A DNA stretch of 64,000 nt from a virus. Position numbers and translations under genes: made by a program. How positions within the stretch are numbered: position 1 is the stretch's first letter; each line of letters starts with the position of its first letter. Below, piece by piece: positions 58,125 to 59,379 of the stretch. Location of the stretch: the IMG/VR virus record IMGVR_UViG_3300045988_125278. One strand, written 5' to 3'. Under the pieces are notes generated by a model. The model saw nothing but the letters and a program-made list of their open reading frames with translations, searched no databases and was not told where the DNA came from.

Positions 58125-58254
58125 TCTTTTAACCTCCTTTTAAAGATGTTAAAAGATAATCATTCGAGAACCCATTGGACTCACTCCCTATATTTTATTA
58201 ATGGTGCGGGCGACGAGAATCGAACTCGTACGAGGGTTTACCTCATGGGATTTT

Positions 58255-59150
58255 CTTACTACTCTATGTCACCATAGCCACATTTCTGTGTTGTAGTCTG
58301 GAATACGTCTTTACCATATCTTATTCAGACTTAGGTAGCTGGTGTATTTTATAATAATTTTAAGATTTATTAAAGTCAATTTTATATCTCATGGAAGGAA
58401 TAATATATTGCTCAATCATTGGGAAAAATTTCATTGCTTCTTTTTTACCCATTCTCAAACGATACTTACCTTTACTTTTATTAAGTTTCCATGTAATATT
58501 AAATTGACTTTGAAAAAAATCAATAATAACTTGATTTTCTTCTGCGGTAAGATAAGTATTTAAAGTAATTTCAGCACCTCTTGGTTTACCGTCAATTTTT
58601 TTAATTGACATAGAACCATCATCCATATACCACCAAGCAATCCCTTCTAAAGTTAGCTGTTCTAAAGCTTCTTTAAGGATTACCTTTTTACCATTAGGAT
58701 AAAATAAATTAACTAAATATTTCGTTAATTCGGTTGTTTCAGTGGTAAATTGAAATACTGAAGTATTATATTGAGGATAATCATACTTATATGTTTGAAA
58801 AGTCTGATTAAAAATTTTCTCAAATCGAGCTTTTTTATATTCAAACCAATCTTTTTGTTTAACAGATTGCCCACAATATAATCTTTTCTCTTTTCTTCCA
58901 CAATCTCCACATAAAGTGCCTATTAAAACACCCATGTCTTCTTTGGAGCATAGACATTTGTCCATTTTTATTCCTCCTAAAATTATTATTACTCTCTACA
59001 CATTTATTATAACAGAAGATATTATAAACTTAGCACGGCGTTCTGTATTCGCCTTCGCCGTTTTAGCCAGCTTCTACTCTAAGAGTTTCCTCTTAGGCAC
59101 TCTCTACTATTAAATAGTAGTATCCATTTTGACACGGATAGAATACATCA
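58255..59150 (-). mobile_element. group I intron in the tRNA-Leu(UAA) anticodon loop (between U34 and A35) carrying a LAGLIDADG ORF
   Basis: 5' exon ends in U, intron ends in G (…GUAAG|AAAA); canonical tRNA-Leu(UAA) insertion site; R-like CCAGACUACA near the 3' end. Confidence 0.6.
58360..58965 (-). mobile_element. LAGLIDADG homing endonuclease (double-motif) inside the tRNA-Leu intron
   Basis: MGVLIGTLCGDCG (motif 1) and WWYMDDGSMS (motif 2). Confidence 0.7.
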
Positions 59151-59379
59151 AAGTCCCAGGCGTCTGCCAGTGTTCCGCCACGCCCGCAGATATCAGCTTT
59201 AATGTCAGCCAACAACTTTCTCTTCAAGTTCCAGCCAGAATTACTGACGCTCAGTCCGTCTATTTTTTCTCTCGCGGGCTTTAGATAATATTTACAAGAC
59301 CTCAAATAACATCCTTGAAGTTTGGTAAAGATTTTATTCTTATATTTGCTGATAAGGTCTTTCTTCATTTTATATAAAT

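What the first reader, a model, noticed from the sequence alone, without database searches (positions are those of the whole stretch)
58202..59187. tRNA-Leu(UAA) interrupted at the canonical U34/A35 site by an 896-nt group I intron carrying a LAGLIDADG endonuclease
Exon sequences reconstruct a type II tRNA whose D-arm (GGCGGAACACUGGCAGACGC) and anticodon arm (UGGGACUU|AAAAUCCCA) closely match bacterial/cyanobacterial tRNA-Leu(UAA). The break falls exactly where the ancient cyanobacterial/plastid tRNA-Leu intron sits. The 5' exon ends in U and the intron ends in G. The intron ORF has both LAGLIDADG motifs. Phage tRNA introns are rare, and this one pairs the oldest known group I site with a homing enzyme.
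Basis: partly seen in the sequence, partly recalled or inferred. Interest (0 to 1): 0.75.

Follow-up and report, generated by a model that had tools for sequence, protein, structure and literature searches.

The report
Mobile self-splicing intron in phage tRNA-Leu
A phage tRNA-Leu(UAA) gene is split at the classic U34/A35 site by a mobile group I intron that carries a LAGLIDADG homing endonuclease; it belongs to a large, apparently undescribed family of phage tRNA introns whose ribozyme core builds helix P5 in an unusual way.

Summary
On the minus strand, exon 1 (59187-59151), an 896-nt intron (59150-58255) and exon 2 (58254-58202) reconstruct a 90-nt type II tRNA-Leu(UAA) with A73 and an encoded CCA. 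Related phage contigs carry the same tRNA uninterrupted, at the same place in the same tRNA array. The junction is exactly the predicted one.

The intron is group I. It has a U·G pair at the 5' splice site, a terminal omega-G, and helices P1-P9 in canonical order with strong covariation. Its ORF-less twins match Rfam Intron_gpI at E=1e-8 and 1e-4, though below the gathering score. The 201-aa ORF is a two-motif, I-SceI-like LAGLIDADG_2 enzyme. It sits in a 643-nt cassette inserted in J7/3.

- The intron is one of at least 44 relatives in IMG/VR phage tRNA genes (Leu, Arg, Met, Ser, Ile). Phage tRNA introns are therefore common in metagenomes, although I found none in the literature I could search.
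- Sister introns carry HNH genes in P6a instead, or no ORF.
- This subfamily has no P5 hairpin. Intron nt 4-10 pair with the loop on P4, with seven compensatory versions.

It is not a close sequence relative of the cyanobacterial intron.

The parts
59151..59187 (-). tRNA-Leu(UAA) exon 1: acceptor 5' strand, D arm, anticodon stem 5' strand, C32 U33 U34. The last three nt, CUU (59153-59151), are the exon strand of P1.
   Evidence: ARAGORN intron mode; coordinates; identical exon in the intronless alleles.
58255..59150 (-). Group I intron, 896 nt. It starts with U after U34 and ends with omega-G at 58255.
   Evidence: The ORF-less twins hit Rfam RF00028.
59141..59147 (-). X: intron nt 4-10 (UGUAUUC), the 5' strand of the P5-surrogate pseudoknot. 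It pairs with X' at 59050-59044.
   Evidence: Six of 7 pairs change on both sides across 20 sequences. Seven sequence versions are each a perfect 6-8 bp duplex.
59104..59140 (-). Two hairpins inside the P1 loop: UAUCC...GGAUA (59140-59121) and CUACUAU-UUA-AUAGUAG (59120-59104).
   Evidence: Both appear in the centroid fold. Compensatory variants are visible in L008, L015, L032, L033, L058 and L064. Both hairpins are absent in L002-type introns.
59100..59103 (-). Internal guide sequence A-GAG. G59102 pairs with U34 (wobble), A59101 with U33, G59100 with C32, and A59103 with intron U+1.
   Evidence: The pairs are invariant in subfamily A. In sister introns in other tRNAs, the triplet at the same position changes with the exon: CAU/GUG (Met) and UCU/GGA (Arg). 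Rfam aligns this GAG to the model's P1 3' strand.
59079..59096 (-). P2 hairpin CUAAGAG-GAAA-CUCUUAG with a GAAA tetraloop.
   Evidence: Six of 7 pairs change on both sides. Present in the centroid fold.
59067..59071 (-). P3 5' strand GCUGG, which pairs with 58342-58338. It is followed by J3/4 CUAAAA (59066-59061).
   Evidence: Three of 5 pairs change on both sides, and 100% of cells are paired.
59036..59060 (-). P4 (CGGCG 59060-59056 / CGCCG 59040-59036) capped by a 15-nt loop, AAGGC-GAAUACA-GAA. The middle 7 nt (X', 59050-59044) pair with X. There is no P5 hairpin.
   Evidence: In the Rfam alignment the P5 positions of the model are replaced by a 9-10-nt insert. Sister intron L332 has an ordinary 5-bp hairpin at this place.
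58999..59035 (-). P6 (UGC/GUG, weak and invariant) and the short P6a hairpin (59028-59003). This is the loop where sister introns carry HNH ORFs.
58990..58996 (-). P7 5' strand GAGAGUA with a bulged A. It pairs with 58305-58300 (UAUUCC). The G-C pairs are candidates for the guanosine-binding site.
   Evidence: 100% of cells are paired; one pair alternates between G-U and G-C. Rfam aligns this strand to the model's AGACUA and the partner to UAGUC.
58347..58989 (-). 643-nt homing-endonuclease cassette inserted in J7/3. It has an 11-bp closing stem (58989-58979 / 58361-58351), a Shine-Dalgarno AGGAGG (58978-58973) and the LAGLIDADG ORF (58965-58360).
   Evidence: Removing the cassette leaves a 253-nt core that is 241/257 identical to the ORF-less L025 intron. 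The closing stem covaries in L205 (AUAUUAUUUUU/AAAAAUAAUAU).
58360..58965 (-). LAGLIDADG_2 homing endonuclease gene, 201 aa, with two motifs; I-SceI-like monomer.
   Evidence: Pfam E=1.7e-30. Best PDB matches are 6x1j and I-SceI at E about 3e-10. Twenty-nine clusters at 83% identity or more are found in metagenomes.
58338..58342 (-). P3 3' strand CCAGC.
58314..58335 (-). P8: CCUAAG...UAUGG with an inner UCU/AGA stem. The sequence matches the 11-nt GAAA-tetraloop receptor motif.
   Evidence: Outer pair varies C-G/U-A, and 3 of the 4 inner P8 pairs change on both sides. The receptor identity rests on my own knowledge of the motif.
58300..58313 (-). J8/7 (UAAAGACG, 58313-58306) and P7 3' strand (UAUUCC, 58305-58300).
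   Evidence: Rfam aligns this stretch to the model's UgAAGAUAUAGUCu.
58255..58297 (-). 3' domain: P9.0 (ACUAC 58297-58293 / GUAGU 58262-58258), P9 (CACA-GAAA-UGUG, 58290-58279), P9.1 (CUAUG-GUGA-CAUAG, 58277-58264), then AAG ending in omega-G at 58255.
   Evidence: P9.0 and P9.1 show changes on both sides. P9 variants are visible. Present in the centroid fold.
58202..58254 (-). tRNA-Leu(UAA) exon 2: A35 A36 A37 A38, anticodon stem 3' strand, long variable arm, T arm, acceptor 3' strand, A73, CCA.

Best explanation
This is a mobile group I intron in a phage-encoded tRNA-Leu(UAA) gene.

Splicing (inferred from the anatomy). The tRNA array is transcribed from the minus strand. In the precursor, the exon triplet C32-U33-U34 pairs with the guide GAG (59102-59100), giving a U·G wobble at the splice site. 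A free guanosine bound at P7 would attack after U34 (59151|59150). Omega-G (58255) would then take its place, and the freed U34 3'-OH would attack before A35 (58254). The product is a 90-nt tRNA-Leu(UAA) that reads UUA/UUG, which make up 46% of Leu codons in this 30%-GC window.

Core architecture (shown by covariation). The ribozyme is IC3-like: a P2 GAAA loop, a P8 11-nt receptor, P3/P7 pseudoknot, P4, P6 and P9. It has no P5 hairpin. Instead, intron nt 4-10, which lie inside the P1 loop, pair with the 15-nt loop capping P4. I infer that this helix stacks on P4 in place of P5. That would tether the very short P1 (3-4 bp) next to the A-rich J4/5-like linkers that normally read the wobble pair.

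Mobility (inferred). The 643-nt cassette in J7/3, a site that tolerates insertions, encodes an I-SceI-like LAGLIDADG enzyme with its own ribosome-binding site. The enzyme presumably cuts intronless tRNA-Leu(UAA) alleles of co-infecting relatives around GGGACTT|AAAATCCC, so that repair copies the intron in (homing).

Shown: the tRNA, the boundaries, the presence/absence polymorphism, the helices and their covariation, and the protein family. Inferred: self-splicing, the geometry of the P5 surrogate, and endonuclease activity and target.
For: - tRNA and boundaries.
- Intronless orthologous alleles sit in the same Cys-Lys-Gly-Leu-Ser-Ser-Thr array. The spliced window is 96-98.6% identical to them across the junction.
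- Structure counted on 20 distinct family members: 96.6% of cells are paired, against 31-46% when partners are slid. Twenty-seven pairs change on both sides, and 0 of 500 shuffles reach any of the five measures.
- P5 surrogate: 6 of 7 pairs covary. Seven sequence versions are each a perfect 6-8 bp duplex. Sister introns with the same core have an ordinary P5 at that place, either a 5-bp hairpin (L332) or a long extension (L039 and others).
- Rfam RF00028 matches full-length, model positions 1-253. L032 scores 38.6 bits, E=1.6e-8. L025, which is 94% identical to the window core, scores 25.5 bits, E=1.2e-4.
- The guide triplet changes with the exon in sister introns: CUU/GAG, CAU/GUG, UCU/GGA.
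- The 253-nt core folds with z=-3.97, and the centroid recovers P2, P3, P4, P6a, P9 and P9.1.
- Endonuclease: Pfam 1.7e-30, I-SceI about 3e-10, and AGGAGG 7 nt upstream of the ATG.
- The same cassette, at 86-88% protein identity, sits in J7/3 of two other tRNA-Leu(UAA) intron backbones (L205, L332).
- Codon use.
Against: - No experiment or transcript data exist; splicing and cleavage are inferred.
- Rfam gives no hit on the window itself, and the twins score below the curated gathering score of 50.
- P1, P4, P6 and P7 barely vary within the subfamily, so they are supported by conservation and model alignment, not by covariation.
- Alignment A1 was hand-trimmed: the variable loops were replaced by N. 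The structure was derived from these same sequences, which inflates control (b).
- One P7 pair is G·U in the window but G-C in 7 of 20 relatives.
- The P5-surrogate geometry is a topological argument, not a model.
Confidence: 0.9

Rival explanations
1. The X:X' pairing is real but is not a structural replacement of P5. It could be a peripheral loop-strand contact like P13/P14. It could also be an alternative pairing that holds the 5' splice-site region until the core has folded, or one that is needed only for one splicing step.
For: Only the base pairing is shown. Its position relative to P4 and J4/5 is inferred. P9's GAAA loop, which in related introns docks on P5 (own knowledge), is not conserved in the subfamily.
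Against: There is nothing else between the two P4 strands. The loop is 14-16 nt with X' in the middle, flanked by A-rich linkers resembling J4/5 and J5/4. Sister introns with near-identical cores have an ordinary P5 exactly there and lack X. The Rfam alignment leaves the P5 positions empty.
Confidence: 0.2
2. The insertion has inactivated the gene. The intron core is decayed, or is broken by the 643-nt cassette, so this copy of tRNA-Leu is a pseudogene.
For: The cassette splits P7 from P3'. One P7 pair is G·U. Rfam gives no hit on the window. There is no expression evidence.
Against: With the cassette removed, the core is 94% identical to an ORF-less intron, and every helix is intact. The cassette is closed by an 11-bp stem that covaries in L205. 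The same cassette in J7/3 is kept in at least 3 backbones and in 29 protein clusters at 83% identity or more. L028 has a small insert at J7/3. The G·U variant is the majority state, in 13 of 20. The ORF is intact with a strong ribosome-binding site. No second tRNA-Leu(UAA) is present in the window, while UUA/UUG make up 46% of Leu codons.
Confidence: 0.06
3. The intron is a direct descendant of the ancient cyanobacterial/plastid tRNA-Leu(UAA) intron, picked up by a phage, and not a separate lineage that targets the same site.
For: It shares the tRNA, the 34/35 site, the GAG guide, and an IC3-like layout with a P2 GAAA loop. L207, another LAGLIDADG-bearing tRNA-Leu(UAA) intron, is detected by the cyanobacterial profile at E=3.7e-10. 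Intermediates may therefore exist.
Against: The profile of 36 cyanobacterial introns does not detect the window, L025, L032, L064, L058, L008, L015, L039 or L017 at E<=1. Rfam scores are 25-39 bits, against 79-86 for the cyanobacterial introns. The nearest relatives of the core are phage introns in tRNA-Arg, Met, Ser and Ile. This points to a phage intron family that moves between anticodon loops.
Confidence: 0.25
4. The LAGLIDADG protein serves mainly as a maturase that helps the P5-less ribozyme fold, not as a homing endonuclease.
For: Some LAGLIDADG proteins are bifunctional (own knowledge, for example I-AniI). The core is reduced.
Against: ORF-less introns with the same core exist (L025, L032, L064, L008). 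So do ones carrying unrelated HNH genes instead. The core therefore does not depend on this protein. Both acidic residues at motif position 8 are present. The presence/absence polymorphism at the tRNA locus fits homing.
Confidence: 0.07

Closest known systems
[quoted passage not shown]
   Same: Same tRNA, the same U34/A35 insertion site, the same GAG guide pairing with CUU, a P2 with a GAAA-type loop, small size (core 253 nt), and reliance on the anticodon stem context. Real examples were fetched for comparison (L212, L215, L217).
   Different: Those introns have an ordinary P5 hairpin and a simple P1 loop. They carry no ORF and score 79-86 bits on RF00028. The window family scores 25-39 bits and is not detected by a cyanobacterial sequence profile. 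It replaces P5 with a pseudoknot, carries homing-endonuclease genes, and lives in phages.
Bacterial tRNA group I introns with homing-endonuclease genes (survey in PMC13011429): HNH in tRNA-Leu(UAA) of Bacteroidota; LAGLIDADG PF03161 in tRNA-Arg(CCU) of cyanobacteria
   Same: Group I introns in anticodon loops that carry HNH or LAGLIDADG_2 genes. The site 34/35 in tRNA-Leu is listed there as a classic site.
   Different: That survey covered complete bacterial genomes only, and found just 12 of 333 introns with endonuclease genes. It did not report a LAGLIDADG gene in a tRNA-Leu(UAA) intron, and it does not discuss phages. I could not check whether its Bacteroidota intron is of the P5-less type; a search of the supplements found nothing.
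Azoarcus tRNA-Ile(CAU) intron (IC3)
   Same: From memory, not tested here: identical P4 (CGGCG/CGCCG), a similar J6/7-P7 stretch (GUGUAGAGA), an 11-nt receptor CCUAAG...UAUGG in P8 for the L2 GAAA loop, and a 3-bp exon-guide pairing.
   Different: Azoarcus has a normal P5 carrying a receptor for L9, and it has no ORF. No Azoarcus sequence was available in the tools, so this remains a lead only.
Phage group I introns with endonuclease ORFs (T4 td, nrdB, nrdD; SPO1/Bastille DNA polymerase; crAss-like phage introns)
   Same: A self-splicing intron plus a homing-endonuclease gene looped out of a peripheral element. Mobility occurs between co-infecting phages. ORFs in P6a, as in the HNH-bearing sister introns, resemble td/nrdB (own knowledge).
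   Different: All of those interrupt protein-coding genes. The 2014 review states that no phage intron was known in a tRNA gene (PMC3984707). The crAss-like papers report introns in protein genes. No GenBank phage record matches this intron. The best GenBank phage homologue of the endonuclease (32% identity, crAss-like cr116_1) lies between protein-coding genes.
I-SceI and 6x1j ('probable intron-encoded endonuclease 1'): monomeric two-motif LAGLIDADG enzymes, Pfam PF03161
   Same: The same Pfam family across the full profile. Both are about 200-235 aa with two motifs. E is about 3e-10 to the PDB chains.
   Different: The relationship is distant, and alignment quality is low outside the second half. 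The target would be a tRNA anticodon stem-loop gene segment, not rDNA. Activity is untested.

Membership tests
Group I intron (Rfam RF00028 Intron_gpI) | The 5' exon ends in U, which forms a U·G wobble with an internal guide sequence (P1). | tested here: met
   U34 (59151) pairs with G59102. C-G, U-A and U·G are present in 20 of 20 sequences. The guide changes with the exon in sister introns in tRNA-Met and tRNA-Arg.
Group I intron (Rfam RF00028 Intron_gpI) | The intron ends in guanosine (omega-G) directly before the 3' exon. | tested here: met
   G58255. The intronless alleles fix the junction. In subfamily A, 21 of 22 members end in ...AAG.
Group I intron (Rfam RF00028 Intron_gpI) | Conserved core helices P3-P4-P6-P7-P8-P9 in canonical order, with the P3/P7 pseudoknot. 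| tested here: met
   P3, P8, P9.0 and P9.1 covary. P4, P6 and P7 are conserved and are aligned to the model by Infernal.
Group I intron (Rfam RF00028 Intron_gpI) | Ordinary P5 hairpin on top of P4 (the P4-P5-P6 domain). | tested here: not met
   Only a 15-nt loop lies between the P4 strands. Its centre pairs with intron nt 4-10. Sister introns have a normal P5.
Group I intron (Rfam RF00028 Intron_gpI) | Score at or above the curated gathering threshold (50 bits). | tested here: not met
   Window: no hit, even at E<=10. ORF-less twins: 38.6 bits (E=1.6e-8) and 25.5 bits (E=1.2e-4) in targeted searches. Positive controls: 79-86 bits.
Group I intron (Rfam RF00028 Intron_gpI) | Guanosine-dependent self-splicing. 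| not testable with these tools
   Needs in vitro transcription and splicing, or RNA sequencing.
tRNA-Leu (bacterial type II) | Cloverleaf with long variable arm, anticodon UAA, and discriminator A73. | tested here: met
   ARAGORN on the spliced sequence and in intron mode. The uninterrupted orthologues are called tRNA-Leu(taa), 88 nt.
LAGLIDADG_2 homing endonuclease (Pfam PF03161) | Profile match above the gathering score, with two LAGLIDADG motifs that keep their acidic residues. | tested here: met
   106.7 bits against a cut-off of 25, covering profile positions 2-168 of 168. The motifs LIGTLCGDC and IAWWYMDDG are in the translation.
LAGLIDADG_2 homing endonuclease (Pfam PF03161) | Site-specific cleavage of the intronless allele. 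| not testable with these tools
   Needs a cleavage assay on a GGGACTT|AAAATCCC substrate.
Mobile (homing) intron | Presence/absence polymorphism at the same site among close relatives, with an intron-encoded endonuclease. | tested here: met
   At the orthologous locus, L001, L003, L004 and L007 are intronless. L008 is ORF-less, L011 and L002/L005 carry HNH, and the window carries LAGLIDADG.

The most novel reading that the evidence does not exclude
The window's intron belongs to an undescribed structural subclass of group I ribozymes, some as small as 235-256 nt. In this subclass the P5 helix is not a hairpin. It is formed by the strand that leaves the 5' splice site, which lies inside the P1 loop, pairing with the loop on P4. 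This base-pairs the substrate helix to the P4-P6 domain. The subclass is part of a large, overlooked population of mobile group I introns in phage tRNA genes. These introns swap homing-endonuclease cassettes (LAGLIDADG in J7/3, HNH in P6a, I-HmuI-like in P9) and occur in phages that also recode TAG.
Probability: 0.55. Interest if true: 0.78.

Novelty: new variant of a known kind. Interest (0 to 1): 0.68.

Why it matters
- The standing generalisation is that phage group I introns invade only protein-coding genes even though phages carry many tRNA genes (PMC3984707). This locus, and at least 44 relatives found with one 15-mer, contradict it.
- tRNA finders and Rfam at curated thresholds miss these genes. 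Phage tRNA repertoires, including those used to infer codon adaptation or stop-codon recoding, are therefore undercounted.
- One orthologous locus shows empty, ORF-less, HNH-bearing and LAGLIDADG-bearing states. The same LAGLIDADG cassette also sits in three different intron backbones. This makes it a compact natural system for studying endonuclease gain, loss and exchange.
- The P5-surrogate pseudoknot, if confirmed, is a new solution for docking a 3-bp substrate helix in a minimal ribozyme. It gives small, naturally validated scaffolds (235-256 nt) for ribozyme and RNA-circularisation engineering.
- An endonuclease aimed at a tRNA-Leu(UAA) anticodon stem-loop gene is a potential new specificity.

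Tried and rejected
- **Rfam on the window.** I ran it at gathering score and at E<=10 on 57900-59500. There was no Intron_gpI hit. The same was true for L008 and six further loci at whole-locus scale. Only targeted searches of about 370 nt on ORF-less members gave hits.
- **blastn against GenBank phages.** A distant-mode search of the locus against 50,697 records gave no match. Megablast of 24 kb hit only a tRNA-Thr.
- **Genome-contig scan with the 15-mer.** It returned 120 rows. Nearly all were chance matches, and only L135 (a contig in a Clostridia MAG) is a real member.
- **First parse of the core.** I initially read UCUG/CAGA as P8 and UGUAG/CUACA as P7. I rejected this because UCUG is not conserved in L002-type introns, and because it left no J8/7.
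- **Suppressor call by ARAGORN.** The 'tRNA-Stop(tta)' or 'SeC(tca)' calls for L002-type and L205 introns are boundary artefacts (9-nt loops). The intronless alleles and omega-G give UAA.
- **Cyanobacterial profile (nhmmer).** It produced no hit on the window family.
- **Literature.** I found no report of a phage tRNA group I intron. A search for reference intron sequences in papers found nothing. A search for 'lacking P5' was swamped by p53 papers. The supplements of PMC13011429 held no endonuclease table as text.
- **LAGLIDADG homologue in crAss-like phage cr116_1.** It lies between protein-coding genes, not in a tRNA.
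Full report
**1. The observation**

The minus strand of 58202-59187 reads GCGGGCGUGGCGGAACACUGGCAGACGCCUGGGACUU, then 896 nt, then AAAAUCCCAUGAGGUAAACCCUCGUACGAGUUCGAUUCUCGUCGCCCGCACCA. Default ARAGORN and Rfam find six tRNAs in the window but not this one.

ARAGORN with intron search calls tRNA-Leu(taa), 90 nt, with an 896-nt intron between GACTT and AAAAT. The joined exons fold as a type II tRNA with loop CUUAAAA, A73 and an encoded CCA. The exon ends in U (59151) and the intron ends in G (58255).

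The ORF at 58965-58360(-) is 201 aa and matches Pfam LAGLIDADG_2 at E=1.7e-30 over the whole profile.

**2. Presence or absence at the orthologous locus**

An 18-nt exon probe found ten phage contigs of 65-197 kb in IMG/VR with the same tRNA, plus two chance matches.
- Four (L001, L003, L004, L007) have it uninterrupted, reading GGGACTT|AAAATCCCA. It lies in the same array order as the window: Cys-Lys-Gly-Leu-Ser-Ser-Thr.
- The in-silico spliced window aligns to them at 96-98.6% identity straight across the junction.
- L008 has a 349-nt ORF-less intron at the same point.
- L002 and L005 have 738-nt introns, and L011 a 764-nt intron, each with an HNH ORF.
- L009 and L012 are cut by contig ends.

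This is the pattern of a mobile intron, and it fixes the splice junction independently of any model.

**3. It is a group I intron**

Rfam Intron_gpI does not hit the window. The reason is a 643-nt cassette (58989-58347) between P7 and P3'.
- With the cassette removed, the 253-nt core is 241/257 identical to the 256-nt ORF-less intron of L025.
- Targeted Rfam searches match RF00028 over the full model (positions 1-253). L032 (255 nt) scores 38.6 bits, E=1.6e-8. L025 scores 25.5 bits, E=1.2e-4.
- Both are below the gathering score of 50. Canonical cyanobacterial tRNA-Leu introns, fetched as controls, score 79-86 bits.
- The Infernal alignments place the guide GAG, P2, P3, J3/4, P4, P6, the P7 strands, P8, J8/7 and P9 where I had placed them by hand. 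They leave the model's P5 empty.

I then aligned 20 distinct family cores (A1) and counted a structure of 58 pairs.
- 96.6% of cells are standard pairs, against 31-46% when partners are slid by 1-3 columns.
- 27 pairs have changes on both sides.
- None of 500 shuffles reaches any of the five measures.
- P2 (6 of 7 pairs), P3 (3 of 5), P8, P9.0 and P9.1 covary.
- P1, P4, P6 and P7 are nearly invariant, so they rest on conservation and on the model alignment.

P1 gains support from sister introns in other tRNAs. There the triplet at the guide position changes with the exon: CUU/GAG in Leu and Ser, CAU/GUG in Met, UCU/GGA in Arg. The 253-nt core folds with z=-3.97, and the centroid recovers most hairpins. 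Profile HMMs made without the window hit it only at the two core halves.

**4. An unusual core**

Between the P4 strands (CGGCG/CGCCG) there is only a 14-16-nt loop. Its central 5-8 nt are complementary to intron nt 3/4/5-10, just downstream of the splice site and inside the P1 loop. Seven different versions are each a perfect duplex:

| Locus | 5' strand (X) | Loop strand (X') |
|---|---|---|
| window | UGUAUUC | GAAUACA |
| L032 | AUAUGUUC | GAACAUAU |
| L033 | UGUUAUC | GAUAACA |
| L083 | UGUGUUU | AAACACA |
| L002 | CUUAGC | GCUAAG |
| L058 | CAUUGAC | GUCAAUG |
| L064 | UCUAUG | CAUAGA |

Six of the 7 pairs change on both sides.

Sister introns with near-identical J3/4, P4, P6, P7, P8 and J8/7 have an ordinary P5 at that place and a simple P1 hairpin. 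L332 has a 5-bp hairpin. L039, L017, L021 and others have a long extension.

I therefore read X:X' as a surrogate P5 made by a pseudoknot. Its loop strand is joined to P4 by A-rich linkers (AAGGC and GAA) that resemble J4/5 and J5/4. Its other strand continues from the splice site after only 2-4 nt, which would hold the 3-4-bp P1 next to the place where the wobble pair is normally read. The pairing is shown; the geometry and role are inferred. I found no description of such an arrangement, but my literature search on this point was weak.

**5. The endonuclease cassette**

The cassette has four features:
- an 11-bp closing stem (AUAAUAAUUUU/AAAAUUAUUAU)
- AGGAGG 7 nt before the ATG
- the ORF, ending in TAA
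- an insertion point right after the P7 5' strand

The protein is closest to I-SceI and to 6x1j among solved structures, at E about 3e-10. It has 29 clusters at 83-92% identity in metagenomes.

The same cassette sits at the same J7/3 position in two other tRNA-Leu(UAA) intron backbones.
- L205 has 86% protein identity, a different X and P2, a closing stem with compensatory changes, and an in-frame TAG.
- L332 has 88% identity and a normal P5.
- A 43%-identical relative occupies the same position in L207/L208. That tRNA-Leu(UAA) intron has a normal P5, and the cyanobacterial profile does recognise it.

Other family members carry other endonuclease genes: a 148-aa HNH, a 175-aa HNH in P6a, and an I-HmuI-like NUMOD/HNH_3 gene in P9. 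The core thus appears independent of any one protein, and the endonuclease genes come and go.

**6. How wide the family is, and what is known**

The 15-mer AATGTGTAGAGAGTA (J6/7 plus the P7 5' strand) retrieved 77 IMG/VR stretches. At least 44 of them have the family's downstream core. Those with both exons present lie in anticodon loops of phage tRNA genes: mostly Leu(UAA) at 34/35, but also Arg(UCU), Met(CAU), Ser(UGA) and Ile(UAU).

No GenBank phage record matches the locus. In a capped scan of species-representative genomes, only one contig, in a Clostridia MAG, carried the family.

In the literature:
- A 2014 review states that all phage introns known then were in protein-coding genes, despite the many phage tRNA genes (PMC3984707).
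- A 2026 survey of bacterial tRNA introns lists 34/35 in tRNA-Leu as a classic site. It found endonuclease genes in only 12 of 333 introns, including HNH in tRNA-Leu(UAA) of Bacteroidota and LAGLIDADG PF03161 in cyanobacterial tRNA-Arg(CCU) (PMC13011429).
- The crAss-like phage papers describe intron-rich 145-192-kb phages with recoded stops, but only for protein genes.
- I found no report of a group I intron in a phage tRNA gene in the searchable library.

**7. Relation to the ancient tRNA-Leu intron**

The site, the guide and the general IC3-like layout are shared. A sequence profile of 36 cyanobacterial introns fails to detect the window family, and the Rfam scores differ by 40-60 bits. The core's nearest relatives are phage introns in other tRNAs. 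I consider a separate phage lineage that targets anticodon loops more likely than direct descent, but this remains open.

**8. Verdict**

The intron is a new variant of a known kind. The known elements are a group I intron at a known tRNA site with a known class of endonuclease. The new elements are three:
- The host is a phage tRNA gene.
- The LAGLIDADG cassette lies in J7/3 of a tRNA-Leu(UAA) intron.
- P5 is replaced by a pseudoknot.

Splicing, cleavage and the role of the pseudoknot remain to be tested.

Noticed in passing
window 49298-53478 (-), with 43220-47096 (-): An 832-aa protein has Major Vault Protein shoulder and repeat domains (MVP_shoulder E=1.4e-21, Vault_3). It lies next to a 521-aa DUF2828/DUF7788 protein that PHROGs calls 'RNA-binding protein'. 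Near these are an RNA ligase, an RlaP-like nucleotidyltransferase and a metallophosphatase. Together they form a vault-like/RNA-repair-like cluster just upstream of the tRNA array in a phage.
   Followed up: no
window, whole (minus strand); L011, L026, L047, L205: There are signs of TAG recoding. Treating TAG as sense raises stop-free frame coverage of the window from 0.69 to 0.84, against 0.73 for TGA. In related contigs, in-frame TAGs in intron HNH ORFs align to Gln (CAG) in sister copies (HFTG*RWYD against HFTGQRWYD). L205's LAGLIDADG ORF also has an in-frame TAG. No suppressor tRNA is present in the window.
   Followed up: partly
L008:1029-1157; L001, L004, L007 downstream of tRNA-Leu: A RAGATH-33 RNA (Rfam 126.8 bits, above gathering) lies about 60 nt downstream of tRNA-Leu in L008. 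L001, L004 and L007 carry about 250 bp downstream of the tRNA that the window and L003 lack. This looks like a second presence/absence element at this locus.
   Followed up: no
L032:5882-6477; L025:7507-8092: ROOL RNAs (Rfam 306 and 290 bits) sit inside the tRNA arrays of two related phage contigs. None is present in the window.
   Followed up: no
window 53592-55980 (-): A GmrSD_N + HNH protein (393 aa) lies next to an EcoRI-type adenine methyltransferase (388 aa, E=1.7e-98), directly upstream of the tRNA array.
   Followed up: no
window 59166-59173 (-), D loop of tRNA-Leu: The window's tRNA-Leu has two extra D-loop nucleotides (GGAACACUGGCAGA) compared with GGAACUGGCAGA in the close relatives L001-L012. 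This makes it 90 nt instead of 88.
   Followed up: no
L013, L017, L021, L023, L039, L042, L055, L074, L076, L082 and others: A second architecture of the same intron family has an ordinary P1, a long P5 extension, and large inserts in P8 and P9. It interrupts phage tRNA-Arg(UCU), Met(CAU), Ser(UGA) and Leu(UAA) genes. L074 carries an I-HmuI-like endonuclease gene in P9.
   Followed up: partly
L025, P3 3' strand: L025 has CUGGC where the window has CCAGC opposite GCUGG. It still pairs through two G·U wobbles, which is an odd double change in an otherwise 94%-identical core.
   Followed up: no
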